From an uncultured Bacteroidales bacterium (GTDB lineage: Bacteria; Bacteroidota; Bacteroidia; Bacteroidales; Bacteroidaceae), in NCBI GenBank assembly GCA_902798685.1, contig CADBXO010000010.1, forward strand, positions 30,877-94,876: DNA of 64,000 nucleotides. The letters are read 5' to 3'. The notes under the pieces were generated by a model. That model did no database searches and was not told where the DNA came from. It saw only the letters and a program-made list of their open reading frames with translations. The position numbers were made by a program, and so were the translations under genes. Positions 12,070-39,700 of this stretch are shown here, piece after piece (positions within the stretch are counted from its first letter, which is position 1; each line of letters begins with the position of its first letter).

Positions 12070-13602
12070 ATGGAGTTTTCATTAAAAGACAACAACTATA
12101 TGGCTCCTTTTATGGGAGAGAAAAAACTGCCAAGTTTTGGACTAAACCCTTTAGGCATTAGAACAGCCTCCGAGCAACTTTTTACCACCCTCTTACCTGG
12201 ACTTAACGTCGTTACATTAAGAGTAAGATATTACAGTTTTTATTGTTGGCTACTAAAAAACTTTTATGAGCCTAGGACAGATGCCCATCTTTATGACTTT
12301 AAAAAGCACATCAGAACCTCAGAGTTATTAATGGCATTAATTCATGCTAATAGTAATACTCCTAAAGGGATACCGGGTATAACAAGAGCAAATGAGATAA
12401 TAAACAGAAATGGAGAAAATATTTTCTTTTTAGATGACGCAATGCCCGATGGCAAAGCCACCGGAGGATATTGGAAAGGAACCAATGGCGCCTTGGGAAC
12501 ATATTATGCTGCTTCAATGCAAGAAATCGGTCTTATTCTTCCATTAACAAAGAACAATAAATTCTACAATGTAACACCCTATACTGATTCGTACATCTCT
12601 GGAGAACAACTGGCGGATGCTTTTGAAAATACAATAGGTAAAGATTTGTCATCTTCATTCCGAGAATGTGCCCAAACCTGCGCTGTAACGAAATCCCAGC
12701 TCGTAGAAATGGAAACCAAGTTTCAGACTCATATAATGCCTAATAATGAAGAACGCCGAATCCTTCTAAACATGTTGCTTCAAAAAGACACACCAAGAAG
12801 CGACACAGAAAGTTATATGCGACGAGATACATTATGCTTTCTGTTGAACTATATTCAAGACAATGATTATCAACCCTTCACAGAGTTAGGTTTTGCCAAA
12901 TACATGTACGAAAGCTACAAGAAAAATAGATTTAGCAATATTACAGCTCTTGGATGGTACGACTATTACTTAAACGATAATAGACAATTTGAAGCTCTCA
13001 ACCTATTTGATGAAGTATTGGAGAGATTGATTAATAGTCAAAGACCTGGCAAATGGGAAGAAATTGAAGACTTCTCAAACAAACTGGCATATGAAACATG
13101 TTCAGATTTTGGAAACCCACATGAAAAATTATCCTCATTATTCTCCCGTTGGGAAACAATTTCGACCGCCAATCTCACTAATACTATATCCAAAGCATTT
13201 TATAGATTCTTTGACGACTACGTTAGAAATGAAGGATACGAAAAATGCAAAGAAGAAATCAAAAGAAAGTTTTGGAGTGTTCGCAATGATGCCATAGATT
13301 TTTTTGACTCGATAAAAAAATGCTTGGATTACACATTGGTTGATTATATCAAACAATTCCTGAAACAAAATATCATATACGGACACTATGGAGAGGCTAT
13401 GAGAAAATATGCTCAGAACGGCGTACCAACACATAAATTATTGATTGAAGATGGTTATGTCAAAGGTCTTGAAAGATATGGCTCATCACATAGTTCTCCA
13501 CGTGTTGAAACATTATACACCTTTGCTACAGATCTTGGAATAATAGATAATAATCAGCTAACTAATGATGGCAAAGAACTCTTAAAGATGATAGCAATAT
13601 GA
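12070..13602 (+). CDS. Unknown 510-aa protein, partner of the PLD-motif protein
   Basis: Long uninterrupted ORF in an AT-rich region. Its stop overlaps the next ATG (ATGA at 13599-13602). I recognise no catalytic motif. The N-terminal block is GLNPLGIRTASEQLFTTLLPGLNVVTLRVRYYSFYCW. Confidence 0.7.
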   Translation: MEFSLKDNNYMAPFMGEKKLPSFGLNPLGIRTASEQLFTTLLPGLNVVTLRVRYYSFYCWLLKNFYEPRTDAHLYDFKKHIRTSELLMALIHANSNTPKGIPGITRANEIINRNGENIFFLDDAMPDGKATGGYWKGTNGALGTYYAASMQEIGLILPLTKNNKFYNVTPYTDSYISGEQLADAFENTIGKDLSSSFRECAQTCAVTKSQLVEMETKFQTHIMPNNEERRILLNMLLQKDTPRSDTESYMRRDTLCFLLNYIQDNDYQPFTELGFAKYMYESYKKNRFSNITALGWYDYYLNDNRQFEALNLFDEVLERLINSQRPGKWEEIEDFSNKLAYETCSDFGNPHEKLSSLFSRWETISTANLTNTISKAFYRFFDDYVRNEGYEKCKEEIKRKFWSVRNDAIDFFDSIKKCLDYTLVDYIKQFLKQNIIYGHYGEAMRKYAQNGVPTHKLLIEDGYVKGLERYGSSHSSPRVETLYTFATDLGIIDNNQLTNDGKELLKMIAI

Positions 13603-19594: not shown

Positions 19595-20221
19595 ATGAAT
19601 GATCTAGAACCAATTAAGCGCAAAATCTATGAGATTAGAGGGTACAAGGTTATGTTAGATTCTGACCTTGCTGAATTGTACAATGTTGAAACCAAGAACC
19701 TAAAAAGAGCTGTCAGGGCAAACATTGAGCGTTTTCCAGACGATTTTATGTTTGAACTCACAAAAGAGGAGTATGATTCTTTAAGGTGCAAAAATTTCAC
19801 CTTAAAGAGTGAAGAGAATGAAAATGCTTTGAGGTGCAAAAATTTCACCTCAAACAGCGGACGCGGTAAACACAGCAAATATCCTCCTTTTGCATTTACG
19901 CGCGAAGGCATCGCTATGTTATCAGGACTTCTAAGGTCTGAGATTGCTGTCAAAGCAAATATCAATATTATGCGTGCTTTCTTCCAAATGCAGGAAGCAT
20001 TGCAAATAGTTGGTAATACTCAACTGCAAATAGAACAGATCAGATCTGAGATAATGCAACTAAGGGTTGATTTGAACGACATCTTAGCTGACCAAAATGA
20101 CATCAACGAAACAACACGTGCTCAACTTGACGCCATAAGTTCTGCATTAGCTGAATTACAAAGCGATAGGGCCAGGCACACTGGGTGCAACCCTATAGGA
20201 TTCAATGTCCCCAAACAGTGA
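19595..20221 (+). CDS. ORF6N-domain (KilA-N-related) DNA-binding protein
   Basis: IYEIRGYKVMLDSDLAELYNVETKNLKRAVRANIERFPDDFMFELTKEE ... GRGKHSKYPPFAFTREGIAMLSGLL is the ORF6N family pattern. Confidence 0.8.
   Translation: MNDLEPIKRKIYEIRGYKVMLDSDLAELYNVETKNLKRAVRANIERFPDDFMFELTKEEYDSLRCKNFTLKSEENENALRCKNFTSNSGRGKHSKYPPFAFTREGIAMLSGLLRSEIAVKANINIMRAFFQMQEALQIVGNTQLQIEQIRSEIMQLRVDLNDILADQNDINETTRAQLDAISSALAELQSDRARHTGCNPIGFNVPKQ
19780..19854 (+). repeat. Two in-frame 27-nt hairpin units inside the ORF6N CDS
   Basis: TTTAAGGTG-CAAAAATTT-CACCTTAAA (19780-19806) and TTTGAGGTG-CAAAAATTT-CACCTCAAA (19828-19854). The 9-bp stems differ by one compensatory A:T to G:C change. Each encodes LRCKNFT. Confidence 0.85.
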
Positions 20222-26687: not shown

Positions 26688-28640
26688 ATGAAACATATAA
26701 ATAAGGTTCTGATCTGCTTTTTACTGACGGTGCTTGCATCGGCCGTAAAGACACAGGCGCAGAATAATCCTTATGGGATTGACGATGAATGCTATGTGCT
26801 GTTCCAGAGGGTAGAGAGTCTGGCGGGGGGCGTATCCGACGAGGAGTTCAACCTTGTGAATGACTCGTTGCTGCAGACCGCTTTGGCCAAGAAAGACAAC
26901 AAGGCACAGGTGATATATTATGTGGAGTGGCTCAAGCACCTTAACCGCGGTCCGTTCAGTAATGAGGAACGGGTCCTCAAGGCTTTTGAGGAACTTAAGG
27001 CAATAGCTCTTTCATACGGCTACAGGCAGTATTTCTACTACGCTTACGAGCTGACCCAAAACTTTTATTTCAACAATGGAAGGCCCAATACCTCAATTGA
27101 GTTGCTGCAGGAGATGCAGGCATACGCCATTGAGCAGAATGATGCTTACGGTATGTGGTACAGCTCCCGATATATGGTTTCGCTGTATACAGCCATGAGC
27201 GATTACGTAACGGCCAAGAAATATATCCTGGAGGGCATCAGGGTCTATAATGAGACCGATGATCCTACGGTAAGACGTCAGTCACTAACCAATTCATACT
27301 GTGACCTGGCCAATACATTTCCTGTTTTGAGTGATTCCATGAGGATATATATAGACAAGGCTTTTGAAGTATCAATGAGCCACAATGATACTCTACGCTG
27401 TAACTATTATCTGGCTGTCATAGCAGCGTTGGATAAGGATGTCAGCAGGTATACTGAATTAAGGGACCGTTGTCTGGCCGATGGACAGTTGCGCCTGATT
27501 TCTGTAACAGCAAGGAATATGTTCCATCTCATTGATGAGATTATAGAGGGTACGATCAACAACAAGGATTTGGATAGTATTGAAGCCCTTTCCAAAATAC
27601 GTGAGATGAAGTTTGTTGTCAATATTGCCGAACTTTACGGATATGAAAACGCCGCTTTCCGCCTGGAGAAGCGCCTGATGGAACTGATGGAAAGCAATTT
27701 TGCCAAGTCCAACCAACTTAATATGGCTGAATTTGACGCAAAAATGGGTAACAAAGTGCTGACAGCCGATCTGGAAGAAAAATCACAGCAGCTGGCCCGC
27801 AGAACCCTTATCCTTACAATACTTGTGACGGCGGTGCTGCTGGGACTGCTGGCATTCTCATACAGTCAGGTGATTAACCTGAGACGCCGCAGGATCCGTG
27901 ACCAGAAGATGATCAATGAGCTGACCGCCGCCAACAAGAAGGCCGAGATTGCCAACGCCGCCAAGACCCGTTTTGTGCAGAACATGAGCCATGAGGTGCG
28001 TACTCCGCTGAACGCAATAGTAGGTTTCTCGCAGCTGCTCTCACTGCCCGATGATGCCCTCACCCCTGAGGAGAAGCAGGAGTTCTCAAACCACATAATG
28101 AACAACACCAAGATCCTGATCATGCTGCTTGAGGATATCCTGAACACCACCGATATGGATAAGGGTGAATACAAGATAACCTATGATGAGGGTGAGGTTC
28201 ACTTTATGTGCCGCGCGGCCATATCAAGCTCCGAGCACCGTCTGCACTCGGGCGTGGAGATGTTCTACGAGCCGGAGTCTGAGGAGCCGTTCACATTCCG
28301 TACTGATCCGCAGCGTGTCCAGCAGATTCTGATCAACCTGCTCACCAACGCCTGCAAGCATACCTCAAAGGGAAAGATCGTGCTGGCCAGCTCACTTACC
28401 GCCAAGCCCGGATTCGTGACATTCAGCGTTACCGATACCGGTCCCGGCGTGCCCGCAGACCAGGCTGAGGCCATCTTTGACCGCTTTACCAAACTCAACA
28501 GCTTTGTTCAGGGAACGGGTCTGGGTCTGAGCATCTGCCGTGAGATTGCCACGCTTATGGGCGCAAACGTCTATCTGGACACCACCTATACCGGTGGCGC
28601 CAGATTCGTGTTTGAAGTTCCCATAAAAAATGAGGAATAA
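26688..28640 (+). CDS. Sensor histidine kinase (periplasmic helical-repeat domain, 1 TM, HisKA, HATPase_c)
   Basis: H-box FVQNMSHEVRTPLNAIVGFSQLL, N-box LINLLTNACKHT, and G-boxes DTGPGVP / GTGLGLSICREI. Confidence 0.85.
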   Translation: MKHINKVLICFLLTVLASAVKTQAQNNPYGIDDECYVLFQRVESLAGGVSDEEFNLVNDSLLQTALAKKDNKAQVIYYVEWLKHLNRGPFSNEERVLKAFEELKAIALSYGYRQYFYYAYELTQNFYFNNGRPNTSIELLQEMQAYAIEQNDAYGMWYSSRYMVSLYTAMSDYVTAKKYILEGIRVYNETDDPTVRRQSLTNSYCDLANTFPVLSDSMRIYIDKAFEVSMSHNDTLRCNYYLAVIAALDKDVSRYTELRDRCLADGQLRLISVTARNMFHLIDEIIEGTINNKDLDSIEALSKIREMKFVVNIAELYGYENAAFRLEKRLMELMESNFAKSNQLNMAEFDAKMGNKVLTADLEEKSQQLARRTLILTILVTAVLLGLLAFSYSQVINLRRRRIRDQKMINELTAANKKAEIANAAKTRFVQNMSHEVRTPLNAIVGFSQLLSLPDDALTPEEKQEFSNHIMNNTKILIMLLEDILNTTDMDKGEYKITYDEGEVHFMCRAAISSSEHRLHSGVEMFYEPESEEPFTFRTDPQRVQQILINLLTNACKHTSKGKIVLASSLTAKPGFVTFSVTDTGPGVPADQAEAIFDRFTKLNSFVQGTGLGLSICREIATLMGANVYLDTTYTGGARFVFEVPIKNEE

Positions 28641-28682
28641 AAAAAATCGGCCCACACAGTGATAATATGTAGAAATGTTGTT

Positions 28683-28690
28683 TACCTTTG
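28683..28690 (+). promoter_or_regulatory. -7 box TACCTTTG for the aro leader
   Basis: Exact TAnnTTTG ending 8 nt before the leader-peptide ATG. Confidence 0.5.
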
Positions 28691-28698
28691 CGCCCAGA

Positions 28699-28749
28699 AT
28701 GAAAGCAATCAACGCATACTTCTATTACTTTTGGTTTACCAGACGATAG
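28699..28749 (+). CDS. Aromatic-rich leader peptide MKAINAYFYYFWFTRR (attenuation leader of the aro operon)
   Basis: 16 codons plus stop. Codons 7-13 are Y F Y Y F W F. It lies between the promoter and an intrinsic terminator, 100 nt upstream of aroF. Confidence 0.6.
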   Translation: MKAINAYFYYFWFTRR

Positions 28750-28792
28750 CCGGGTAATTTGTTGTGTGCATACTAACGAACAAGATAACAGA

Positions 28793-28824
28793 GAGCCCGG
28801 ATCAATGATTCGGGTTCTTTTTTT
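28793..28824 (+). terminator. Attenuator terminator
   Basis: GAGCCCGGAT-CAATG-ATTCGGGTTC (10 bp including G:U pairs) followed by TTTTTTT. CCGGG at 28750-54, right after the leader stop, can pair with CCCGG of the 5' arm. Confidence 0.65.
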
Positions 28825-28849
28825 GATGTAAAAACAAACACATAAAACT

Positions 28850-29860
28850 ATGATAGCAGTACTTAAAGCCGGAGTCTCAGAGACTCAAAAGAAAAACCTT
28901 ATCAACTGGATCAAAGGCCAGGGAGTAGACGTACATATCAGTGAAGGACAGTTCCAGACCGTTATCGGTCTCATAGGTGATACCAGCCGAATCGACCCCG
29001 ACCTGCTGAGCGGACTTGACATCATCGAGTCAGTTACCCGCATCAGCGAGCCGTTCAAATGCGCCAACCGCCGCTTCCACCCCGCCGACACAATCGTAGA
29101 GATAGGTGAAGGTGAGAACAAGGTAAAGATCGGTGGCGGCAACTTCGCCATGATTGCCGGTCCCTGCTCAGTTGAATCCGAGGAGCAGATTGTAGGCATA
29201 GCACAGGCCGTTAAGGCATCGGGCGCAACACTTCTGCGCGGCGGCGCCTTCAAACCCAGAACTTCACCCTACGACTTCCAGGGAATGGGGGCCGATGGCC
29301 TTGAACTGCTGCGTAAGGCCCGTAAGGCAACAGGTCTGCCCATAGTTACAGAGATTATGAGTGAAAAACACCTTGACCTGTTTGAGGATGTAGACCTTAT
29401 TCAGGTTGGCGCCCGCAACATGCAGAACTTTGAACTTCTCAAGACTCTGGGACGTACCCGCAAGCCCATCCTGCTCAAGCGCGGCCTCTCCAGCACCATC
29501 AAGGAGTGGCTCATGAGCGCCGAGTACATCATGGCCGGCGGTAATGAGAACATCATCCTGTGCGAGCGCGGCATACGCAGTTACGACACTTACACACGTA
29601 ACGTACTGGACCTGAGTGCAATCCCCGTAGTAAAGGAACTCTCACACCTGCCCATCATCGTTGACCCCAGCCACGCAACCGGCAAGTCACGTCTGGTTCC
29701 TTCAATGAGTCTGGCTGCAGTTGCAGCAGGCGCCGACGGTCTTATCATCGAGGTTCACAACGATCCCACCCACGCTCTCTGCGACGGTGCACAATCTCTC
29801 ACACCTGCGCAGTTTGACGAGGTTGCAAAGAAAGTAAACGCCTTAAAACAAATAATCTAA
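28850..29860 (+). CDS. aroF: 3-deoxy-7-phosphoheptulonate (DAHP) synthase, type I-beta with N-terminal regulatory domain
   Basis: [12 protein letters not shown]...[18 protein letters not shown]...VDPSH blocks of the KDO8P/DAHP-Ibeta family, plus a ~70-aa ferredoxin-like N-terminal domain. Confidence 0.85.
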
Positions 29861-29889
29861 GTACTTTTGTAAATCAACTTAAGAGCAAG

Positions 29890-30723
29890 ATGATTGTAGC
29901 AGTTGTAGGATTGGGTCTTATAGGCGGTTCGCTGGCCAAGGCATACAAGGAGGCCGGCTGGACGGTTTACGGCTATGACCTGAACGAGTCGGTGAGCTGT
30001 TTTGCACAGTTGGAAGGCACTCTGGATGCAGTGCTGGACAGCAAAAATATCAAGAAGTGTGACCTTATACATATTGCAGTTACTCCTGATGCCGCATGCG
30101 GCTGGATCAACGAGCACGCTCCCGAGATTGCCAAGAGCACAATCGTGATTGATGACTGCGGAACCAAGCGTAAGGTGGTTGAGTGCGGAATGAAAGCCGC
30201 CGCAAAGTACGGATTCACCTATGCAGGCGGTCACCCCATGGCCGGAACACATCTTTCCGGTTACAAGAACTCACGCGGATCTATGTTCCAGAACGCATCC
30301 ATGATCATCATCCCGCCCACTCATGATGACATCCAGCTGCTGGACAGGATCAAGCATCTTCTGGAGCCCATGCAACTCAAGCGCGTGGTATTCACCACCC
30401 CCGAGCAGCACGACAGCATGATTGCATTCACATCACAGCTGGCTCACGTGGTGTCCAACGCATACATTAAGAGCCCATCGGCCCAACAGCATAAGGGTTA
30501 CAGCGCGGGCAGTTTCCGCGACCTTACCCGTGTGGCCTGGCTGAACGAGAATATGTGGACAGAGCTGTTCCTTGAGAACAAGGACAACCTGTTACGCGAG
30601 ATACATACCTTGATTGACAACCTCACGCAGTACGCCGATGCCATGGAGGCCGATGACGCCCAGACATTGTGCGCTCTGTTGCGTGACGGACGTATTGCAA
30701 AGGAACTTTCAGAAAAGAACTGA
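29890..30723 (+). CDS. tyrA: Prephenate dehydrogenase
   Basis: VAVVGLGLIGGSLAKA Rossmann motif, GGHPMAG and TPEQHD blocks. Confidence 0.85.
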   Translation: MIVAVVGLGLIGGSLAKAYKEAGWTVYGYDLNESVSCFAQLEGTLDAVLDSKNIKKCDLIHIAVTPDAACGWINEHAPEIAKSTIVIDDCGTKRKVVECGMKAAAKYGFTYAGGHPMAGTHLSGYKNSRGSMFQNASMIIIPPTHDDIQLLDRIKHLLEPMQLKRVVFTTPEQHDSMIAFTSQLAHVVSNAYIKSPSAQQHKGYSAGSFRDLTRVAWLNENMWTELFLENKDNLLREIHTLIDNLTQYADAMEADDAQTLCALLRDGRIAKELSEKN

Positions 30724-30724
30724 T

Positions 30725-31777
30725 ATGGAAACAGCCAAAATCACCGTCCGTGCATCAGGCACATATGACATCCTCATCAGCAAGGGTGGTCTGAGCGGCA
30801 TAGGCAAGGCTGCGGCAGAGCGTTTCAAGCCCTGCACCGTAGCCATCCTGAGCGACGACAAGGTGTTCCCGCTCTACGGCAAGACCGTGATGGATTCACT
30901 TGAGGCAGCCGGTTTCAAGACCGTAGCCCACGTGATTCCCAACGGTGAGCAGAGCAAGACCCTTGATAACGTGACCGCATTCATTGACTGCATGGTCAAG
31001 GCGCAGGTTACACGCACCGATATGGTGCTGGCGCTGGGCGGCGGCGTGGTTGGCGATATGGCCGGATTCGCAGCGGCAATCTACCTGCGCGGCATTCCAT
31101 ACATTCAGGTGCCCACTACCCTTCTGGCTGCCGTTGATTCATCGGTCGGCGGCAAGACTGCGGTTGACATAAGCGCCGGCAAGAACCTGGTTGGCGCATT
31201 CCACCAGCCCGCTCTGGTCTATCTGGACACCGAGAATCTGAAAACCCTTGACCCTTCTGTATTGCGTGACGGCTTTGCCGAGGTTATCAAATACGGTATC
31301 ATACTGGACAGCAAGCTGTTCGACACCGTTGCAAAGCCCGACAGCTTTGACCTTAAGGAGGTGATTGCACGCTGCATTGAGATTAAGCGTGATGTCGTGG
31401 AGCAGGATGAGTTTGACAAGGGCCTGCGCGGTCTGCTCAACTTTGGCCACACATTCGGTCACGCAATCGAGAAGCTGAGCGGCTTTACCATCACCCACGG
31501 AAGCGCCGTCGCCCGCGGCATGATCATCGCCGCAAAGGTGGCCCGCGTTTACGGCTTCACAGATTACACAGACATCATCACCAAAATAGTAAAGGATTAC
31601 GGTTTCCAGACCGACTGTCCTTTCAAGGCCGATGAGCTCTACAGCGTGATCCTATCGGACAAGAAGCGCAGCGGAGCTGACATTACACTCGTGCTGCCAA
31701 AGGAGATTGGCGCATGCACTCTTGAGAAAATGCCTGCCAGTCAGGTGCTTGAACTGATGAAAAAGGCCGGATTATGA
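30725..31777 (+). CDS. aroB: 3-dehydroquinate synthase
   Basis: LGGGVVGDMAGFAAAIYLRGIPYIQVPTTLLAAVDSSVGGKTAVD and NFGHTFGHAIE. The ATG at 30725 directly follows the tyrA stop. The longer track ORF (30614) overlaps tyrA. Confidence 0.9.
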   Translation: METAKITVRASGTYDILISKGGLSGIGKAAAERFKPCTVAILSDDKVFPLYGKTVMDSLEAAGFKTVAHVIPNGEQSKTLDNVTAFIDCMVKAQVTRTDMVLALGGGVVGDMAGFAAAIYLRGIPYIQVPTTLLAAVDSSVGGKTAVDISAGKNLVGAFHQPALVYLDTENLKTLDPSVLRDGFAEVIKYGIILDSKLFDTVAKPDSFDLKEVIARCIEIKRDVVEQDEFDKGLRGLLNFGHTFGHAIEKLSGFTITHGSAVARGMIIAAKVARVYGFTDYTDIITKIVKDYGFQTDCPFKADELYSVILSDKKRSGADITLVLPKEIGACTLEKMPASQVLELMKKAGL

Positions 31778-33039
31778 TTCTAGAGGTATCAGGAGCAGTT
31801 TCAGGAAACGTACAGGTGCCGCCTTCAAAGTCGGTAGCCCACCGCATGCTCATATGCGCAGCGCTCGCTGACGCTCCCTGCACAATAGTCTGCCAGAGCG
31901 TGAACCGCGACATGGAGGCAACCGCCGCCTGCCTGAACGCCCTTGGCGCAGAGATCACCTACGCTGACGGAAAGTTCAGCGTCCAGCCTATCAAACAAGT
32001 CAACAAAGGTGCAACGCTTGACTGCGGCGAGAGCGGCTCAACCCTGAGGTTCCTGCTCCCCGTTGCCGCCGCACTCGGGGCCGATGCCACATTCATCGGC
32101 CAGGGCCGTCTGCCCGAGCGTCCGCTCTCTCCTCTCTACGAGGAGATGACCGCTCACGGCGTAAAGATGTCACCTAACGGCCACATGCCCCTTAAGTGTG
32201 AGGGTAACCTGCCCGCCGGTCTCTACACCATTGACGGCGGCGTATCATCACAGTTCATATCAGGACTTCTCATGGCCCTGCCCCTTACCGGAATCCAGAG
32301 CAAGATAGTGATTACCGGCAAGCAGGAGAGCGCATCATACATAGGACTTACTCTGAACGCGCTTAAGCAGTTCGGAATTGAGATACAGACAGCCACAGAC
32401 GGATATATCATTCCCGGCGGACAGGAGTTCACCACCCCCGCCGATCAGGTTGTCGTCGAGGGTGACTGGTCAGCCGCCGCATTCTGGATAACCGCAGGCG
32501 TAGCAGGCAGCAAACCCGTTACCTGCACCGGTCTGGACTACGAGCGTTCGGCCCAGGGTGACCGCCGCATAGTAGACGTGCTCCGCAAGATGGGTGCCGA
32601 TATCGCCACCGCAGGCAATACGGTAACCGCACGTCCGTCAAACCTGACCGCTGCTCAGATTGACTGTGCCGATATCCCTGACCTGGTTCCTATTCTGGCT
32701 GTTGCGGCGTCATCGGCCCAGGGAACTACAATCTTTGACAACATACGCCGTCTGCGCATTAAGGAAAGTGACCGTGTGCAGTCCATACTGCAGCTTCTGG
32801 GTATGGCCGGCATATATGCGTTTGCATCGGACAACACCTTAACGGTGACCGGTGGTCCTGCAAGAAATGCCAGTTACGACCCGTCGGGTGACCACCGTAT
32901 GGCTATGGCTGCGGCTGTGTTGGCATCGGTGGGAAACGTAAAGATTACCATTAGCGATGCGGAGTGCACCGCAAAATCATACCCCGCCTTCTTTGATGAT
33001 TTCAACGCACTGGGAGGCATAGTTCTGAAACAACAATAA
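31774..33039 (+). CDS. aroA: 3-phosphoshikimate 1-carboxyvinyltransferase (EPSP synthase)
   Basis: PPSKSVAHR, CGESGSTLRFLLP, KESDR and DHRMAMA blocks. 4-nt overlap with aroB. Confidence 0.9.
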   Translation: MILEVSGAVSGNVQVPPSKSVAHRMLICAALADAPCTIVCQSVNRDMEATAACLNALGAEITYADGKFSVQPIKQVNKGATLDCGESGSTLRFLLPVAAALGADATFIGQGRLPERPLSPLYEEMTAHGVKMSPNGHMPLKCEGNLPAGLYTIDGGVSSQFISGLLMALPLTGIQSKIVITGKQESASYIGLTLNALKQFGIEIQTATDGYIIPGGQEFTTPADQVVVEGDWSAAAFWITAGVAGSKPVTCTGLDYERSAQGDRRIVDVLRKMGADIATAGNTVTARPSNLTAAQIDCADIPDLVPILAVAASSAQGTTIFDNIRRLRIKESDRVQSILQLLGMAGIYAFASDNTLTVTGGPARNASYDPSGDHRMAMAAAVLASVGNVKITISDAECTAKSYPAFFDDFNALGGIVLKQQ

Positions 33040-33047
33040 ATACCATA

Positions 33048-34190
33048 ATGGACCTTACAGATTACAGAAACAAGATTGACTCTATCGATGATGAGATATG
33101 CCGTCTCTTCACCGAGCGCATGAGCGTAGTCAATGAGATTGGCGAATTCAAACGCAGCCATGATGTACCCGTTAGCAGCAGTTCACGCGAGCGCGAGGTG
33201 CTGGCACGCATTTCCAAACAGTTGCCCGAGGATTTGGAGGATTTCGGACGCGTACTTTACCGTTCAATGTTTGACGTGAGCAAGGCTTATGAGGCCATGT
33301 ACAAGGAGAAGGACTCCCCTCTCTACAAGGCTATCTCAAGCCTGATCAATGCTGATCCCGCTCCCTTCCCCAAGCGCGCCGTTGTGGCTTGTCAGGGACG
33401 TGAGGGCGCATACTCACAGATTGCAGCCGAGAAGCTGTTTGAGGTGCCCGAGATCATGTTCAACAACACCTTTGAGGGTGTTATCCGCATGGTTACCGAC
33501 GGCCTTTGCGAGTACGGCATCCTGCCTATCGAGAACTCAACCGCAGGTTCTGTGAATGAGATCTATGACCTGCTGGTAAGATATAATGTTCATATTGTAC
33601 GCAGCACACGCGTGCGCGTTGACCATCAGCTGCTGGCCGCCAAGGGAACCCGTTTCCAGGATATCAAGACCATCTACTCTCATCCGCAGGCCATCAACCA
33701 GTGCTCACACTTCCTGGCCGCCCTGAAGGATGTTGAGATCATTCCGTTCGACAACACCGCTATGGCTGCCCAAAAGGTTGCCAAGGATCCCAATAGGACA
33801 TCGGCCTCTATATCTTCAAAGAGTTGCGTTGACCTCTATAACATGGAGGTTCTTGCAGCCGATATCCAGAACTTTGACAGCAACCACACACGCTTTATCT
33901 GCATTGCCAAGAACGCCCGCATCTATCCGGGTGCCAACCGTACCAGTATCATGATGGTGATGTCACACAAGCCCGGTACTCTGTTCTCAGTGCTGTCTAA
34001 GTTCAATGCAACAGGCGCAAACCTTGTAAAGCTGGAGTCCCGTCCTATCCCGGGCCGCGATTTTGAGTTCATGTTCTACTTTGACATTGAGCTCTCCATC
34101 TATGACAAGAAGTTCGCGTCACTGATCAGTGAGCTGGACCATTGCGGCGAGCAGTTCAAGTATTTCGGCACATATCAGGAAATTGTCTAA
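33048..34190 (+). CDS. pheA: Bifunctional chorismate mutase / prephenate dehydratase
   Basis: N-terminal CM_2 (IDSIDDEICRLFTERMSVVNEIGEFK), the PDT block YGILPIENSTAGSVNEIYDLL, and a C-terminal ACT domain (TSIMMVMSHKPGTLFSVLSKF). Confidence 0.85.
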   Translation: MDLTDYRNKIDSIDDEICRLFTERMSVVNEIGEFKRSHDVPVSSSSREREVLARISKQLPEDLEDFGRVLYRSMFDVSKAYEAMYKEKDSPLYKAISSLINADPAPFPKRAVVACQGREGAYSQIAAEKLFEVPEIMFNNTFEGVIRMVTDGLCEYGILPIENSTAGSVNEIYDLLVRYNVHIVRSTRVRVDHQLLAAKGTRFQDIKTIYSHPQAINQCSHFLAALKDVEIIPFDNTAMAAQKVAKDPNRTSASISSKSCVDLYNMEVLAADIQNFDSNHTRFICIAKNARIYPGANRTSIMMVMSHKPGTLFSVLSKFNATGANLVKLESRPIPGRDFEFMFYFDIELSIYDKKFASLISELDHCGEQFKYFGTYQEIV

Positions 34191-34199
34191 CTTAGCGGC

Positions 34200-34628
34200 A
34201 TGAAAAAGATTCTTGTCATAAACGGTCCTAACCTGAACCTTCTGGGTCTTCGCGAGCCCGCCATTTACGGCAGCCGCGACTACAAGGCTCTTGAGGCATT
34301 CGTGCTTGAGAACGGTCTGGACCTGGGGCTCCAGGTGGAGTGCTTCCAGTCAAACCATGAGGGCGCCATCGTGGATAAGATCCAGCAGGCGTACGGCGTG
34401 TTTGACGGTATCGTGATCAACCCCGCGGCTTACACTCATACAAGCGTTGCCATTCTGGATGCGCTCAAGGCTGTGGCCATTCCCACGGTCGAGGTTCATC
34501 TGAGCGATGTTGACTCTCGTGAGGAGTTCCGCCGCCACTCATTCGTGTCTCTTTACGCCTGCAAGGTGATAAAAGGCAAAGGCTTTGACGGCTACAGAGA
34601 GGCTCTGGAACACTTTTCTGAAAAATAA
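34200..34628 (+). CDS. aroQ: Type II 3-dehydroquinate dehydratase
   Basis: ILVINGPNLNLLGLREPAIYG ... QSNHEG ... INPAAYTHTSVA. Confidence 0.9.
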   Translation: MKKILVINGPNLNLLGLREPAIYGSRDYKALEAFVLENGLDLGLQVECFQSNHEGAIVDKIQQAYGVFDGIVINPAAYTHTSVAILDALKAVAIPTVEVHLSDVDSREEFRRHSFVSLYACKVIKGKGFDGYREALEHFSEK

Positions 34629-34641
34629 TTGAAAAAATATC

Positions 34642-34675
34642 AAGGTCCGGACCAACAAATCCGGACCTTTTTCGT
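34642..34675 (+). terminator. Intrinsic terminator of the aro operon
   Basis: AAGGTCCGG-ACCAACAAAT-CCGGACCTT followed by TTTCG. Confidence 0.75.
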
Positions 34676-34701: not shown

Positions 34702-35580
34702 ATGATGAAAAAGTATCTTATTGCGGTTGTAGCAGCTCTTCTGGCAGTTCCCGCGTTTGCACAGTCCGAGAGACATTACGAATATGATGAATATGGCCAG
34801 GTCGGCCGCAAGGAAGGCTGGGCCCGCCGTTTTGCCCACAATTTCTACGATGCTCTGGTGGGTGCCGAGTATTATGAGGTAGTCGATGAGCAGGGCAACC
34901 AGTATGACAAGAAACCTGTCAGCAAGAAGGAGCAGAAAAATGTAAGCAAAACTTACCGTTACTACGGTCCCGGTCACACCCCAAGTTTCTACCTGGGCGT
35001 GAATATGCTCACAACCGATGATCCTATGGTTATGGTTCCTGGTCTGCCCCAGAAACAGGGCAAGGGATTCGAGCTTGGATTCGCCGTAGGTCAGTGGGGT
35101 TACCATATGACCAGGAACATTGGCGTCAACACCGCATTCTACATAACACGTTCACGTTACTGGATTGACAACGGTCAGTTCCTGGATTATACATCCAACA
35201 GAACCGGAGGCCAGAAAATAGATCTGTTTGACACCTATGACGGTCATCAGGCAAAGCAGGGTTACCTGCGCTACTGGAGCCTGCGCGTACCTATCTGCCT
35301 TGAGATCAGCTCAGCATCAAGACGCGGACCGTTCATCGCTGTCGGTCCCGAGATCGAGTACCGCTTTGCCGATGTTTCAAAGGTTGACCTTATCGGTAAT
35401 GATGACCGCGTGACAGTTGCAGACGGCATCAACGTGAATCCTATTGGTCTTAACGCAGTAGCGCGCATCGGCATAAATGATTTCGGAATCACAGCCCGCT
35501 ACTCATTCACCAGCCTCTTCCTGGATGATGATCCCGTAAAGACCTACCCCTTCATGATTGGTATCAGCACATCATTCTAA
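34702..35580 (+). CDS. Outer-membrane beta-barrel (porin-family) protein
   Basis: Signal peptide ending AFAQ, alternating amphipathic strands, and a C-terminal ...GISTSF aromatic terminus. Confidence 0.6.
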   Translation: MMKKYLIAVVAALLAVPAFAQSERHYEYDEYGQVGRKEGWARRFAHNFYDALVGAEYYEVVDEQGNQYDKKPVSKKEQKNVSKTYRYYGPGHTPSFYLGVNMLTTDDPMVMVPGLPQKQGKGFELGFAVGQWGYHMTRNIGVNTAFYITRSRYWIDNGQFLDYTSNRTGGQKIDLFDTYDGHQAKQGYLRYWSLRVPICLEISSASRRGPFIAVGPEIEYRFADVSKVDLIGNDDRVTVADGINVNPIGLNAVARIGINDFGITARYSFTSLFLDDDPVKTYPFMIGISTSF

Positions 35581-35647: not shown

Positions 35648-36769
35648 ATGCTTGAGATTAAGGAGGTCCTCACCGACAAGGACAAAAAGAAGCTCTTCAG
35701 GTTCCCCATTGACCTGTACAGAGATTGTGACATGTACGTGCCCGTGCTCATAGGTGATGAGATGGACACATTCAACCCCAAGAAAAACGGGGCATACAGC
35801 TACGCCGACAGCCGTCTGTGGCTGGCTCTTCGCGACGGAAAGGTTGTGGGCCGAATCGGTGCCATCCTGAACCGCGCCGCCAATGAGAAGGACAACGTAA
35901 AGCAGCTGCGTTTTACACGCTTTGACTTTATCGATGACTTTGAGGTCTCAAAGGCGCTGTTTGACACCGTAATCGCCTGGGCCCGTGAGCTGGGTATGAC
36001 CGAGCTGGTTGGCCCGCTGGGATTCTCCAACCTTGACAAGCAGGGTATGCTGGTGGACGGTTTCGACCAGCTGGACATGTACATCACCCTCTACAACTAC
36101 CCCTACTACATCGAGCATATGAAACGTCTGGGCCTGACCAAGAAATGGGACTGGACCGAGACCAAGGTGATTGTACCCGATCAGGTTCCCCCCAAGATGG
36201 ACCAGATTGCCGAGATATCCGAGAAGCGTTACGGCTACTCCATCAAGAAGTTCAGGAACATGAAGGAGGTCCGCCCCTATGTTCGCCGCGCGATGGAGAT
36301 CATCAACATAGCATTCGCCAAACTCCACGGAGTTGTTCCTTTGTCCGATAAGCAGATCGACAACATGGAGCATCTGATAGGCCTTGTAGGCCGTCCCGAG
36401 TATTCGCTCATGGTTCAGAACCACGCTGGCGATTTGGTTGGTTTTGGCTTCATAGCACCCTCAATCAGTCGCGGCATCCGCGCCAGCAAGGGCAAGCTTG
36501 GCCTGTTCTCCGCACTGAAGGTCCTGAGCGATCTGAACGATCATCGGCACATAGATTTCTACATGATAGGCGTCCGTCCCGAGGACCAGAAAAAAGGCGT
36601 GGAGTGCATCATCCTGCGCGAAGGAATCAAAGCCATCCAGTCCCACGGCGGCATAGACTGCCAGACCGGCCCCATGCTCGAGGACAACGCCAACGTCCAG
36701 AACATCTGGAAGCACTTTGAACACTACACTCACCGACGTCGCCGCTGCTGGAGTTACGTGATACCTTAG
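35648..36769 (+). CDS. GNAT-like acyltransferase-family protein (function unknown)
   Basis: 373 aa starting at MLEIKEVL. The segment VVGRIGAILN...LRFTRFDFIDD...AWARELGMTELVGPLGF resembles a GNAT core. The longer track ORF (35558) overlaps the upstream gene and terminator. Confidence 0.5.
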   Translation: MLEIKEVLTDKDKKKLFRFPIDLYRDCDMYVPVLIGDEMDTFNPKKNGAYSYADSRLWLALRDGKVVGRIGAILNRAANEKDNVKQLRFTRFDFIDDFEVSKALFDTVIAWARELGMTELVGPLGFSNLDKQGMLVDGFDQLDMYITLYNYPYYIEHMKRLGLTKKWDWTETKVIVPDQVPPKMDQIAEISEKRYGYSIKKFRNMKEVRPYVRRAMEIINIAFAKLHGVVPLSDKQIDNMEHLIGLVGRPEYSLMVQNHAGDLVGFGFIAPSISRGIRASKGKLGLFSALKVLSDLNDHRHIDFYMIGVRPEDQKKGVECIILREGIKAIQSHGGIDCQTGPMLEDNANVQNIWKHFEHYTHRRRRCWSYVIP

Positions 36770-36770
36770 A

Positions 36771-39700
36771 CTACTGGCAAACTGGCCGCACGGAATTACC
36801 GTAGAAACGGATGCCGCAGTCCGCACCGTGATAGCCCGAATTGAAAAAGAGGTACCACGCATAGATCGGGCTGTCCGTGTTGAGCGAACTGGACCAGTAG
36901 CGGCACCCGGTAGCCGGCAGGAAAATGGAGCGGTCTGTGTAACCGGACTTGTTGCTCGTAACTCTGTAACCATTAACACCGTTCAGTGTGATCCAGGTCC
37001 AGGTGCAGTTGTTGAGCAATTCGGTGAATTCTGTCTGTGTGGGCATGCGCCAGCTACCGCCCCACTTCTGGTTGGCCACATCATCACTCATGTCAAGAGT
37101 GGTCATTGTGTCAGTGAAACCATTATAGCCATAGATACTATCGTTACAATATTTGGTCATAGTAGTAAGTGAACCATTGCAATACTTGTAGTTGAACTCA
37201 TTATAGGTTGATTTGGCCTCCGTCTCACCCCATGCAAAATATGAACCGTAATCCTCTGGTTTCTCAGCGCCAATATTACATGTAGCCCATTTAACACTTA
37301 ATCCTAGATCCACATATTCCTTAACAGGTTCATATTCCTTAACTACGACATCACACACAGATTCTAAGCCATTGTATTCTGCCGTAATATGTGCTGTACC
37401 CTGAGACAAGGCTGTTACGGTTCCATTATCAGTTACTGTAGCAACACTAACATTATCGGAAATCCAAATCACATTGTAAAGGAAACTATAATCCTCATTT
37501 CCGCTCAAAATATATGCTTTCAAATCGGCCATGTTGCCTTCAACCATATTCAACGACTCTCTATCTATTGCTACAGATGTAATAGCCCATGAATCTGATG
37601 GACAAACTGGACGGACTGTTTGCCCCACATAACGAGAACTTCCCCCATAAACACCAATACCATAGCTTGTACCTGAGATATCAAATGATTTAGCATTTAT
37701 ATAATAAGAACCTAACGTTCTTGTCCAGTAATTACCACCTTCGCCAGAATCATGAAAGTTGTTTTCATAACGACGGGATGAAGCAGGCAAGAAGATATAG
37801 TTATTTTCAAATCCAGCTACATTACTCTTAATCTTGAAACCATTGACGCCATCCAGAGTTATACGTGTCCAAGTACATTTATTACATAACTCTAGGAACT
37901 CTTCACAAGATGGCATACGCCAGTTACCACCCCATTTAACATGTGCAACATCATCTGTTAATTCAAGTGTGGTTTTATCATCAACAACACCTAAAATACT
38001 ATCACTATTATACTTAGTTAAGGTAGAATAAGATCCTTGACAATACTTATAATTAGACCATGTGTAACCGTTTGTTTTACCACTCTTCCAAACAGGATTT
38101 TCAGACTGAGCACTACCAGGTTCATAATATGGCTCTGTATCGCCCCAAGCAAAATAATCCCCATAACCAGTCTTAGTATCTGCGCCGACATTAAAGGTTG
38201 CCCACTTGACGCTCAAGCCCAAATCAACATAACCATAATTATTATCATATCCCGTAGGATCATAAGTCGTTACCCCATTTGACACAGTAACCAAGCAGCT
38301 ATCACAGCTATTTCCAATAGAAGCAATGATATAAGCTAATCCGGAAGCAATCCCCTTTACAACGCCATTTTCATCTACAGTTGCCACTGATTCATCATTT
38401 GAGATCCAAGATATCTTTACGAACCCACTACTTACCACATAGCTTAACTGTGATGTCTCATTTGGATCAAGAGCTATACTAGTCTGAGTGATATTTACTG
38501 AAACCTTCCAATTCGGGTTATCCATAACGGGGCGAACAGGCATACCGGAACTTTTACTATATGATGACATATATGCTGGTTCATAGTCATAATCTGGCAT
38601 ATTATACATATATAGACTGAACGCCTCATCGTTACCATCCGTATTATTACACCAATAATAGCCATCATTCCTACTTACAAGGGAGGATCCATTGCGTCTG
38701 CCTGTAACTGGAAGGAATATTGAATTATCCTCATATCCGTATTTTTGGCCTGTTATTTTATAACCTTTCACCCCATTTAGTGTTGTCCACTCCCATGTGC
38801 AGTTGTATAGTAATTCATAAAAGTTTTGGGTTGTAGGTACATGACATTTATCCCCATATACCATGCGAGCGACATCATCATCAGGCTCAAGTTTTGTCAG
38901 GCTATCCTCGTTGTTATACTTGGTAATGATATAATCTCCATCATCTGATATCTCAGCCCACTTATAAGTACTCTGACTATATCTTGCCTTAGGTTCAGTT
39001 TCACCCCATGCATAGTAGTCACCAATGGCTTCAGGCTCTAGCGCACCTACATTGCATGTGGCCCACAGAACACTTAAACCAAGGTCTACAAAATCTTTAA
39101 CATATTGTTTTTCTTCTACTTCCACTATACAATCGGCTTTTCCATCACTAAATTCAGCAGTGATATATGTCTTTCCTGGCGAAATAGCAGTAACTACCCC
39201 TTGCTCACTGACTGTTGCAATTTGCTCATCATTTGAAGACCATTTGATATCATACAATTGGGTTATCACCTCATCACGATCCTTTATGGTAGCCTTTATA
39301 TTTGCAGTATTATACTGTATAAGATGAACAGAATCGATATTTAGGGATATTGATGGAATAATTGTATCTGACTTGCATACTGGGCGTATGAAATAACGGA
39401 ATGTACGATGACCATTAGTGGTTTCTAAACAATAATTCTCTTTAAACATCAGTATGTATGCATATTCAGAACTAACACCTATTGAACTAGACCAGTAATG
39501 CCCATATGAGTCAGTCTCATCCCCTGTAACAGGAATTACTATATAATTATCATTTGTATTACTTGTCACCTTGCAACACCTAATTCCATTTTGAGTGATC
39601 CATGTCCAAGTACAATTATTTATTAATTCATTAAATTCCGCTTTAGTTGGAATACGCCAACCGGCACCCCATATCTCATGAGCAGCATCATCCGCCAGGG

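What the first reader, a model, noticed from the sequence alone, without database searches (positions are those of the whole stretch)
28683..28849. Aromatic-codon leader peptide and attenuator upstream of a Bacteroidales aroF-tyrA-aroB-aroA-pheA-aroQ operon
Seen in the sequence: a TACCTTTG -7 box (28683-90) is followed 8 nt later by an ORF encoding MKAINAYFYYFWFTRR* (28699-28749). This ORF has seven consecutive aromatic codons (3 Tyr, 3 Phe, 1 Trp). After it come CCGGG (28750-54) and a strong intrinsic terminator, GAGCCCGGAT-CAATG-ATTCGGGTTC plus T7 (28793-28824). The aroF ATG is at 28850. CCGGG can pair with CCCGG in the terminator's 5' arm.

Established knowledge: ribosome-mediated attenuation with regulatory codons is classical for the proteobacterial pheA, pheST and trp operons.

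Inference: a ribosome reaching the stop codon would mask the CCGGG anti-terminator segment, so the terminator forms. Stalling at Phe/Tyr/Trp codons would free it, so transcription reads through. A single mixed F/Y/W leader controlling the common pathway plus both the Phe and Tyr branches would be an economical design. I do not know it as a described element for this phylum. The ATG sits so close to the -7 box that the leader mRNA would be nearly leaderless.
Basis: partly seen in the sequence, partly recalled or inferred. Interest (0 to 1): 0.65.

Follow-up and report, generated by a model that had tools for sequence, protein, structure and literature searches.

The report
Phe/Tyr leader-peptide attenuator before aroF
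A 16-codon mini-gene with seven aromatic codons, followed by a stop-or-go RNA switch, very probably turns on this gut Bacteroidales bacterium's aromatic amino-acid operon when Phe/Tyr run short. The mechanism is the textbook one, but the operon came from Clostridia and the mini-gene appears to be read from an almost leaderless mRNA.

Summary
The downstream genes are aroF-tyrA-aroB-aroA-pheA-aroQ.

The leader is conserved. All 23 orthologous loci sampled in the same genus carry it, and so does one locus in a second Bacteroidales family. The run stays aromatic while Tyr and Phe codons swap freely. Trp is not conserved.

Every copy can form a 14-bp antiterminator (28750-65 with 28785-800, about -19.5 kcal/mol, against about -19 for the terminator). 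Its 5' strand lies where a ribosome at the stop codon would cover it. This is classical ribosome-mediated attenuation.

- The operon is of clostridial origin. The Bacteroidaceae copies form one clade nested inside Clostridia, and 65 of 76 clostridial loci carry their own Tyr/Phe-rich leader.
- Two sister genera hold the same operon without a leader.
- The same genome has a His leader with the identical "box + 8 nt + ATG" layout.

Closest published relatives are C. glutamicum aroR and the uORFC-13-1 motif. I rate it a new member of a known kind, of moderate interest. No direct RNA evidence could be obtained.

The parts
28683..28690 (+). -7 promoter box TACCTTTG (matches TAnnTTTG). It implies a TSS near 28695 and a 5' UTR of 3-4 nt.
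   Evidence: Sequence read. A TAnnTTTG box is found 7-9 nt (regex window; 8 nt in the window) before the leader ATG in all 24 leader-bearing loci. In F. johnsoniae the G of the box is at -5 (PMC6847099). The TSS itself is inferred, not observed.
28699..28749 (+). Leader ORF MKAINAYFYYFWFTRR*
   Evidence: It is conserved in 24 loci. Most relatives read on to ...TRQYAG* and stop at a TAA just after GCCGGG.
28717..28737 (+). Regulatory run of seven aromatic codons (YFYYFWF)
   Evidence: The run stays aromatic while its identity changes: YYFYFWF, YFYFYYF, YFFYFYF, YFYFYF, YFYFYYYF.
28714..28719 (+). GCAUAC, 5' arm of the stem that flanks the aromatic run (anti-antiterminator, part of segment 1)
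   Evidence: Pairs with 28764-69 in 100% of cells across 22 sequences, but the pairs hardly vary. Many clostridial leaders have an analogous GCA...UGC stem.
28764..28769 (+). GUGUGC, 3' arm of the flanking stem. It overlaps the end of the antiterminator 5' strand.
28750..28765 (+). Antiterminator 5' strand CCGGGUAAUUUGUUGU (segment 2)
   Evidence: -19.5 kcal/mol with 28785-800. (94.5% of cells paired; CCGGG invariant). (z -3.3 to -5.6 in 15 of 15; partner lies -5 to +12 nt from the stop codon).
28785..28800 (+). Antiterminator 3' strand AUAACAGAGAGCCCGG (segment 3). It shares 28790-28800 with the terminator's 5' arm.
28790..28824 (+). Intrinsic terminator: hairpin 28790-28820 plus U7 run 28818-24
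   Evidence: 96.9% of cells paired and 3 pairs with changes on both sides. About -19 kcal/mol.
28850..29860 (+). aroF, DAHP synthase (clostridial type)
29862..29869 (+). -7-like box TACTTTTG, 20 nt before the tyrA ATG. Possible internal promoter.
   Evidence: A TAnnTTTG box is found in the aroF-tyrA spacer in 10 of the 23 leader-bearing loci checked and is absent where aroF and tyrA abut.
29890..30723 (+). tyrA, prephenate dehydrogenase
30725..31777 (+). aroB, 3-dehydroquinate synthase. The ATG follows the tyrA stop codon (TGA-T-ATG).
31774..33039 (+). aroA, EPSP synthase
33048..34190 (+). pheA, chorismate mutase/prephenate dehydratase
34200..34628 (+). aroQ, type II 3-dehydroquinate dehydratase
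34642..34673 (+). Hairpin plus T run that ends the operon
   Evidence: -18.7 kcal/mol

Best explanation
This is a classical ribosome-mediated (leader-peptide) transcription attenuator that senses charged Phe- and Tyr-tRNA.

Transcription starts about 5 nt after the -7 box. The leader AUG is therefore 3-4 nt from the 5' end and is read as a near-leaderless message without a Shine-Dalgarno sequence.

Three states follow:
- Aromatic amino acids plentiful. The ribosome runs to the stop codon (TAG 28747-49 here; a TAA just after GCCGGG in most relatives). There it covers CCGGGUAAUUUG, so segment 3 pairs with segment 4. The terminator (28790-28824) forms and RNA polymerase stops before aroF.
- Ribosome stalled anywhere in the seven-codon aromatic run (28717-37). 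Its front edge ends at about 28749 or earlier, and it also covers GCAUAC and the run itself. The strand 28750-65 is then free to pair with 28785-800. This antiterminator takes away the terminator's 5' arm, and transcription continues into aroF and the genes behind it.
- No ribosome on the leader. Segment 2 is held by segment 1 (GCAUAC:GUGUGC, and UACUUC with CCGGGUA), so termination is again the default.

Shown here: the sequence parts, their conservation, the mutually exclusive folds and their geometry.
Inferred: the TSS, the stalling, and the response to amino-acid supply.
For: Anatomy.

Operon identity.

Conservation of the leader:
- Present in 15 of 15 first-sampled same-genus loci.
- Present in 8 further same-genus loci.
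- Present in 1 locus of another Bacteroidales family.
- The N-terminus varies freely, Tyr and Phe codons swap, and run length is kept.
- Conservation begins at the promoter. The upstream flanks differ between genomes.

Terminator: 96.9% of cells paired, 3 compensatory pairs.

Antiterminator:
- -19.5 kcal/mol against -19.0 for the terminator.
- Present in every copy, with z -3.3 to -5.6 in the 15 first-sampled loci and -1.3 to -4.4 in the 9 later ones, against dinucleotide shuffles.
- In the 15 first-sampled loci its 5' strand lies -5 to +12 nt from the stop codon; the 9 later loci keep the CCGGG(U):CCCGG pairing.
- One antiterminator pair changes U-G to U-A in L121, where the terminator also changes G-C to A-U.

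Segment 1:2 pairing: 91.5-100% of cells paired.

The mechanism is native to this organism:
- A His leader MKRYTVSYHHHHTCRS* has the same TACCTTTG + 8 nt + ATG layout and a terminator before hisG-hisD-hisC.
- An Ile-rich leader precedes leuA-leuC-leuD.

Near-leaderless reading:
- Box-to-ATG distances in the genome peak at 4-8 nt for about 90 long ORFs.
- The G of the box is at -5 in F. johnsoniae.

Precedent:
- C. glutamicum aroR, a Phe-Tyr-Phe leader before aroF, responds to Phe limitation.
- 65 of 76 clostridial orthologous loci have Tyr/Phe-rich leaders, against 3 of 76 in the reverse-complement control.
Against: There is no direct RNA evidence. The only public data are low-depth metatranscriptome contigs.
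- They include pieces that cross the terminator into aroF with 0 mismatches, such as 28715-29025 and 28741-28873.
- They also include pieces that run upstream of the proposed promoter, so DNA carry-over cannot be excluded.
- Neither the TSS nor a 3' end at about 28824 can be read from them.

The antiterminator and the GCAUAC stem are supported by conservation and energy, not by covariation. Their pairs barely vary within this young clade.

A -7-like box before tyrA could let the downstream genes partly escape the leader.

Two sister genera run the same operon without any leader, so the device is dispensable.

In C. glutamicum, Tyr supply had no effect on the aroR attenuator. Which amino acid is actually sensed here is open.
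Confidence: 0.85

Rival explanations
1. The terminator is a regulated attenuator, but the sensor is not the translating ribosome. A protein (TRAP-like or PheR-like), an uncharged tRNA (T-box-like) or a small molecule would bind the leader RNA. The short ORF would be incidental or would only modulate the effect.
For: The nucleotides UUUACCAGAC and GCCGGGU are invariant even at synonymous positions. This shows constraint at the RNA level beyond coding.
Against: No T-box or riboswitch family matched the region even at E up to 10. The run is conserved as codons for aromatic residues while its nucleotides change between TAC/TTC and TAT/TTT. That pattern fits a codon sensor and not a ligand pocket. 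The reading frame and the position of the stop codon relative to CCGGG are kept in all copies.
Confidence: 0.05
2. The ORF encodes a functional small hydrophobic peptide, or the roughly 125-nt terminated transcript is a trans-acting small RNA. Its position before aroF would then be coincidental.
For: The terminated leader would be a stable, structured RNA of about 125 nt. In one run the leader region has contigs while aroF has none (X31).
Against: It always sits directly before the orthologous aroF, whatever gene lies upstream. The peptide N-terminus is not conserved and Tyr/Phe swap freely. The same arrangement occurs in most clostridial orthologues, with unrelated peptide sequences. Run X31's kind is only guessed to be RNA.
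Confidence: 0.03
3. The leader is a relic of the clostridial donor and no longer works in a Bacteroidales host. The terminator would be constitutive or leaky, and the operon would be driven by read-through and by the internal promoter.
For: Two sister genera dropped the leader altogether. A -7-like box precedes tyrA in about half of the leader-bearing genomes.
Against: The promoter, start codon spacing, frame, aromatic run, antiterminator and terminator are all intact in 24 of 24 loci. These loci span AroF divergence down to about 79% identity, and they show compensatory changes. A relic would have decayed. The host uses the same layout for its own his operon.
Confidence: 0.05
4. Evolutionary rival. 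The leader was not imported with the operon. It was built anew inside Bacteroidales on the native 'box + 8 nt + ATG' attenuator pattern, after the clostridial leader had been lost.
For: A profile of the genus leader finds clostridial leaders only weakly (best E 0.005), and only across the aromatic codons. The two other Bacteroidaceae genera lack a leader, and one of them is sister to the leader-bearing clade. One loss plus one gain is therefore as parsimonious as two losses. The native His leader has the same length and layout.
Against: The donor group almost always has a leader at this position (65 of 76), including the sister lineages L037 and L051. The genus and many clostridial leaders both begin the run with Ala-Tyr. 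Both also have a GCA...UGC stem flanking the run. Losing a device is easier than building a complete four-segment one.
Confidence: 0.45

Closest known systems
Corynebacterium glutamicum aroR leader before the aroF operon (Neshat et al. 2014, as summarised in PMC11802643; also PMC3890552)
   Same: A short leader peptide with mixed Phe/Tyr codons sits directly upstream of a DAHP synthase operon. Read-through rises when ribosomes stall.
   Different: It is from a different phylum and a different DAHP synthase operon. Its run is only Phe-Tyr-Phe, against seven here. No sequence similarity was tested. In C. glutamicum only Phe limitation had an effect.
Enterobacterial pheL-pheA, pheM-pheST and trpL attenuators (Rfam Phe_leader, Trp_leader)
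   Same: Same four-segment logic: regulatory codons in segment 1, a stop codon placed so that the ribosome masks segment 2, and mutually exclusive 2:3 and 3:4 helices.
   Different: There was no Rfam match. Only Thr_leader scored 23.5 bits, on the terminator alone, against a threshold of 55. The codons here are mixed Tyr/Phe rather than a single amino acid. The promoter is of the Bacteroidota -7 type, there is no Shine-Dalgarno sequence, and the start is near-leaderless.
uORFC-13-1 motif upstream of aroF in Acholeplasma and environmental sequences (Brewer et al. 2021, PMC8632094)
   Same: A uORF with Phe codons lies immediately before a terminator stem and upstream of aroF. It was proposed to work by translation speed.
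   Different: It was described from 24 sequences with -10/-35 promoter elements and a ribosome-binding site. It appears not to be in Rfam 15, since 12 clostridial loci gave no leader match at gathering threshold. Its relation to this leader was not testable here.
Uncatalogued Tyr/Phe leader family before aroF-tyrA-aroB-aroA in gut and rumen Clostridia
   Same: It occupies the same position before the orthologous operon (AroF 63-74% identical, same gene order). It has a Tyr/Phe run, a terminator, an antiterminator signal (mean z -1.56), and often an Ala-Tyr run start and a GCA...UGC flanking stem.
   Different: The clostridial copies examined have TTGACA/TATAAT-type promoters and GGAG ribosome-binding sites. 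Sequence similarity to the Bacteroidales leader is marginal.
Bacteroid-trp motif (RF01692, Weinberg et al. 2010, PMC2864571)
   Same: It is a cis-regulatory leader before amino-acid biosynthesis genes in Bacteroidota. It shows that this kind of control is already on record for the phylum. It matched B. thetaiotaomicron in the control search.
   Different: It belongs to a different operon (trp) and a different RNA. It had no match in this genome.

Membership tests
Classical ribosome-mediated leader-peptide attenuators (trpL/pheL/hisL class) | Short ORF with a run of codons for the end product(s) of the downstream operon | tested here: met
   Seven consecutive Tyr/Phe/Trp codons lie before an operon that holds tyrA, pheA and the common pathway.
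Classical ribosome-mediated leader-peptide attenuators (trpL/pheL/hisL class) | Intrinsic terminator between the leader ORF and the first structural gene | tested here: met
   Hairpin 28790-28820 plus U7. It is conserved, with 3 compensatory pairs.
Classical ribosome-mediated leader-peptide attenuators (trpL/pheL/hisL class) | Antiterminator that excludes the terminator. Its 5' strand is masked by a ribosome at the stop codon and free when the ribosome stalls in the run. | tested here: met
   28750-65 pairs with 28785-800 at -19.5 kcal/mol. The antiterminator is present in 24 of 24 copies. In the 15 first-sampled loci its partner lies -5 to +12 nt from the stop codon. The 9 later loci keep the CCGGG(U):CCCGG pairing. 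Support is from conservation and energy, with little covariation.
Classical ribosome-mediated leader-peptide attenuators (trpL/pheL/hisL class) | Conservation of the ORF and its regulatory run in orthologous leaders | tested here: met
   Present in 23 of 23 loci of the genus and in 1 locus of another family. Run identity varies but stays aromatic.
Classical ribosome-mediated leader-peptide attenuators (trpL/pheL/hisL class) | Read-through responds to the supply of the cognate charged tRNA | not testable with these tools
   The genus is uncultured. Metatranscriptome contigs are uninformative.
Rfam leader families (Phe_leader, Trp_leader, His_leader, Thr_leader, Leu_leader, leu/phe leader, Bacteroid-trp) | Score at or above the family's gathering threshold | tested here: not met
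   The best match was Thr_leader at 23.5 bits against 55, aligned to the terminator only. RF01692 is absent from the genome.
T-box leaders (the usual control of aromatic genes in Firmicutes) | Match to the T-box covariance model, with specifier loop and T-box sequence | tested here: not met
   No T-box match at E up to 10 in 28400-29100. None at gathering threshold in 12 clostridial loci.
Clostridial aroF Tyr/Phe leader family (uncatalogued) | Position directly before the orthologous aroF-tyrA-aroB-aroA operon | tested here: met
   AroF of the Bacteroidaceae is nested in Clostridia. Gene order is the same.
Clostridial aroF Tyr/Phe leader family (uncatalogued) | Detectable sequence or structure homology of the leader outside the aromatic codons | tested here: inconclusive
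   The best nhmmer E-value was 0.005, with hits centred on the aromatic run; only weaker hits (L067, E 0.0098; L058, E 5.2) reach past it. The shared Ala-Tyr run start and GCA...UGC flanking stem are suggestive only.

The most novel reading that the evidence does not exclude
A complete leader-peptide attenuator crossed a phylum boundary together with its operon, from Clostridia into Bacteroidaceae. It survived by being re-fitted: a sigma-ABfr -7 box replaced the sigma-70 promoter, and a 5'-terminal, Shine-Dalgarno-free AUG replaced the ribosome-binding site. Sister lineages that received the same operon discarded the leader. This would be a natural example of how translation-coupled RNA switches are ported between hosts with incompatible transcription and translation signals. 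It would also show that leaderless initiation is enough to drive attenuation in Bacteroidota.
Probability: 0.5. Interest if true: 0.55.

Novelty: new member of a known kind. Interest (0 to 1): 0.4.

Why it matters
Regulation of amino-acid biosynthesis in gut and rumen Bacteroidales is poorly mapped. Leader-peptide attenuators are rarely annotated there, because the genes are tiny and there is no Shine-Dalgarno signal to flag them.

This locus, together with the His and leu-operon leaders in the same genome, shows that textbook attenuation is in use in this lineage. It appears to run from near-leaderless transcripts, which gives a simple search rule: -7 box, 4-8 nt, ATG, short ORF, terminator.

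In this 84%-complete assembly the imported operon is the only detected copy of tyrA, aroB, aroA, pheA and aroQ. Its switch therefore probably sets the cell's Phe/Tyr supply.

The contrast between genera that kept the leader and genera that dropped it is a ready-made comparison for asking what such a switch is worth. The mechanism itself is not new.

Tried and rejected
- Rfam scan of the region at E up to 10 and of 12 clostridial loci at gathering threshold. No leader, T-box or riboswitch family matched. The Thr_leader hit covers only the terminator.
- Sigma-70 promoter scan. Nothing relevant on the + strand, as expected for Bacteroidota.
- The longer in-frame ORF from the ATG at 28675 (MLFTFAPRMKAIN...). 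Rejected as the real start, because that ATG overlaps the -7 box and is missing in L006, L011, L013-15, L116, L117, L121 and L140.
- First version of the antiterminator test, folding from the stop codon onward. It was mis-specified for relatives whose ORF includes GCCGGG, and was redone from the ribosome's front edge.
- nhmmer profile of the genus leader against clostridial loci. Too weak to prove homology.
- Metatranscriptome contigs from eight runs. Depth is low and pieces extend upstream of the promoter, so the TSS and termination cannot be judged.
- Search for a leader before the genome's second DAHP synthase homologue on C29. Another gene abuts it and no leader is present.
- Bacteroid-trp in the own genome. 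Absent.
- Pfam and NCBIfam on the two ORFs after aroQ. No family matched. They lie beyond a strong terminator and are not counted as part of the operon.

Full report
**1. The observation**

- TACCTTTG lies at 28683-90.
- The ATG is at 28699, 8 nt after the box.
- The ORF reads MKAINAYFYYFWFTRR* (28699-28749), with seven consecutive aromatic codons at 28717-37.
- CCGGG is at 28750-54.
- A 14-pair hairpin sits at 28790-28820 with a T7 run.
- The aroF ATG is at 28850.

NCBIfam confirms the six downstream genes as aroF, tyrA, aroB, aroA, pheA (chorismate mutase/prephenate dehydratase) and aroQ. A strong hairpin with a T run at 34642-73 closes the unit. The leader RNA folds better than its shuffles (z = -3.3).

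**2. Conservation in relatives**

The genome is a rumen/gut Bacteroidales assembly of 2.26 Mb, 84% complete.
- All 15 same-genus orthologous aroF loci first sampled carry the leader.
- Eight more same-genus loci do too.
- One copy in a different Bacteroidales family also carries it.

The flanks upstream of the promoter differ from genome to genome. Conservation starts at the promoter.

The peptide N-terminus is free: MKAIN, MRTVN, MRSFN, MNNNS, MRKNSS, MEKMTSS, MRTKNN. The run stays aromatic while Tyr and Phe codons swap: YFYYFWF, YYFYFWF, YFYFYYF, YFFYFYF, YFYFYF, YFYFYYYF. The single Trp codon is confined to the main clade.

This is the pattern expected of a codon sensor, not of a functional peptide.

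In most relatives the ORF runs on to ...TRQYAG* and stops at a TAA directly after GCCGGG. In this window and several close relatives a one-base deletion puts a TAG just before CCGGG.

**3. The switch**

The terminator is about -19 kcal/mol.

When the RNA is folded without the terminator's 3' arm, 28750-55 (CCGGGU) pairs with 28795-800 (GCCCGG). In addition 28758-65 (UUUGUUGU) pairs with 28785-92 (AUAACAGA). This gives -19.5 kcal/mol and takes away the terminator's 5' arm.

A ribosome with any aromatic codon in its A site reaches at most to about 28749, which leaves this strand free. A ribosome at the stop codon covers to about 28760 and blocks it.

I folded each relative from the front edge of a ribosome stalled at the last aromatic codon.
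- All 15 first-sampled copies gave an antiterminator of -15.6 to -19.7 kcal/mol.
- Their z-scores against dinucleotide shuffles were -3.3 to -5.6.
- The partner strand always lay -5 to +12 nt from the stop codon.
- The nine later copies behave the same way.

Pair counts on a 22-sequence alignment:
- Terminator: 96.9% of cells paired, three pairs changed on both sides.
- Antiterminator: 94.5% paired, CCGGG:CCCGG invariant, almost no covariation.
- GCAUAC (28714-19) with GUGUGC (28764-69), the stem that brackets the aromatic run: 100% paired but nearly invariant.
- The full segment 1:2 fold of the window: 91.5% paired.

The terminator is therefore supported by covariation. The antiterminator and anti-antiterminator rest on conservation, energy and geometry.

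**4. The promoter and the near-leaderless start**

A TAnnTTTG box is found 7-9 nt before the leader ATG in all 24 copies (8 nt in the window). In Flavobacterium johnsoniae the G of this element is at -5 (PMC6847099). That puts the start here at about 28695 and leaves a 5' UTR of 3-4 nt.

In this genome the distance from such boxes to ATGs that open ORFs of at least 100 codons is bimodal.
- One peak lies at 4-8 nt, with about 90 ORFs.
- A trough follows at 10-16 nt.
- The main peak lies at 17-29 nt.

Near-leaderless messages are thus a regular class here, and more frequent than the 3.7% of 5' UTRs under 10 nt reported for B. thetaiotaomicron (PMC7366714).

The TSS is inferred and was not observed.

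**5. The same device elsewhere in the genome**

I scanned the whole assembly for a box, a short ORF with an amino-acid run, and a terminator.
- A His leader MKRYTVSYHHHHTCRS* turned up with the identical TACCTTTG + 8 nt + ATG layout. It sits before genes I read, from their sequences, as hisG-hisD-hisC.
- An Ile-rich leader MRLQGFIIISIIIPDCRCEEA* sits before leuA-leuC-leuD, also named by my reading of the sequences.

Classical attenuation is therefore at home in this organism.

**6. Where the operon comes from**

Outside the genus, the closest AroF proteins are clostridial, from Oscillospiraceae, Lachnospiraceae and unclassified Clostridia, at 63-74% identity. The usual gene order there is the same, aroF-tyrA-aroB-aroA.

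In a 122-sequence tree all Bacteroidaceae copies form one clade (SH-aLRT 96). That clade is nested within Clostridia and is sister to L037 + L051 (99). A careful 28-sequence tree agrees (94/87 and 98/98).

Distribution within Bacteroidales:
- Only 3 of 35 sampled genera of the family have the operon.
- Only one further genome among 400 sampled across the order has it.
- In the own genome tyrA, aroB, aroA, pheA and aroQ have no second copy.

This is a horizontally acquired operon, and it now appears to carry the pathway.

**7. A clostridial leader family**

Of 76 clostridial loci, 65 have a short ORF with at least 5 aromatic residues in 8, lying 70-190 nt before aroF. The reverse-complement control gives 3 of 76. 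Examples are MKSIFVFAYYYYFTMDS and MNILNFAAEYFYFYFFGFIQRG.

Most of these ORFs are followed by a terminator. They show an antiterminator signal above shuffles (mean z -1.56). The exceptions include loci where pheA precedes aroF.

No Rfam family covers them. Earlier agents of this scan reached the same conclusion on other genomes.

Published relatives are the uORFC-13-1 motif before aroF in Acholeplasma (PMC8632094) and the tested aroR leader of C. glutamicum (PMC11802643; PMC3890552).

**8. Imported or rebuilt?**

The leader-bearing copies (this genus plus the copy from the other family) form one clade. Its sister genus g40 and the next genus out, g39, have the operon behind a plain -7 promoter with no leader. 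Two losses are as parsimonious as one loss plus one gain.

A profile of the Bacteroidales leader finds clostridial leaders only weakly (best E 0.005), always at the right place and mostly on the aromatic codons.

Points for inheritance:
- The donor group nearly always has a leader.
- Both sets tend to start the run with Ala-Tyr.
- Both sets bracket the run with a GCA...UGC stem.

Point for rebuilding: the host's own His leader has the same layout.

I leave this open at about even odds.

**9. RNA data**

Only Logan contigs of rumen and gut metatranscriptomes were available.
- Several pieces with 0 mismatches cross the terminator into aroF: 28715-29025, 28708-28858 and 28741-28873. This is compatible with read-through transcripts.
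- Other pieces extend upstream of the promoter into the flanks of related species.

DNA carry-over therefore cannot be excluded, and neither the 5' end nor premature termination can be judged.

**10. Caveats and verdict**

A -7-like box (TACTTTTG, 29862-69) lies 20 nt before tyrA. A TAnnTTTG box is found in that spacer in 10 of the 23 leader-bearing loci checked, and is absent where aroF and tyrA abut.

Which amino acids are sensed is unknown. In C. glutamicum only Phe mattered.

In kind it is a known device. Its particular interest is the clostridial origin of the operon, the near-leaderless Bacteroidota-style start, and the natural presence/absence contrast among sister genera.

Noticed in passing
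own genome, contig C18 + strand 20134-20184 (outside the window): His leader MKRYTVSYHHHHTCRS* with the same TACCTTTG + 8 nt + ATG layout and a -21.8 kcal/mol terminator. It lies about 90 nt before genes I read as hisG-hisD-hisC from their sequences; no family search was run on them.
   Followed up: partly
own genome, contig C30 minus strand, 12929-12994 in reverse-complement coordinates (outside the window): Ile-rich leader MRLQGFIIISIIIPDCRCEEA* plus a terminator, before genes I read as leuA-leuC-leuD. Ile codons rather than Leu codons before a leucine operon is unusual. The -7 box is 34 nt upstream, so this one has a normal 5' leader.
   Followed up: partly
own genome, whole assembly: The distance from TAnnTTTG boxes to ATGs of long ORFs is bimodal, with peaks at 4-8 nt and 17-29 nt. 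About 90 genes would have 5' UTRs of 0-4 nt. This near-leaderless class is larger than the one reported for B. thetaiotaomicron.
   Followed up: partly
window 29862-29869, and the aroF-tyrA spacer in related loci L003, L005, L006, L009, L010, L113, L114: The aroF-tyrA spacer is highly variable within the genus. It ranges from abutting genes (TGATATG) to spacers holding a -7-like box, tandem heptamers (AATTGAG repeats) or CAGCCAA-type repeats.
   Followed up: partly
own genome, contig C21 minus strand, 37603-37680 in reverse-complement coordinates: Short ORF MKYGSNDYWIMFWFFEERDRNGFRS, 15 nt after a TACCTTTG box and followed by a -16.2 kcal/mol terminator. It lies upstream of a 783-aa multi-pass membrane protein. 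Possibly another leader, or chance.
   Followed up: no
window 34702-35580 and 35648-36769: Two ORFs after the operon terminator have no Pfam or NCBIfam match. The second has a paralogue on contig C6 at 36% identity.
   Followed up: partly
loci L123-L137 (sister genus g39), about 30-60 nt before aroF: The leaderless versions of the operon share a conserved block, ...GGATAATTGAAGTTTATTTGTA(A/T)(A/T)TTTG(C/T)A..., around their -7 box. Beyond the promoter, it might hold an operator for a protein regulator that replaced the attenuator.
   Followed up: no
locus L038 (record labelled Alloprevotella sp.): This contig groups with clostridial AroF (L035/L036). It has a TTGACA/TATACT-type promoter and a GGAG site, so the 3.6-kb contig is probably mis-binned clostridial DNA.
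   Followed up: partly
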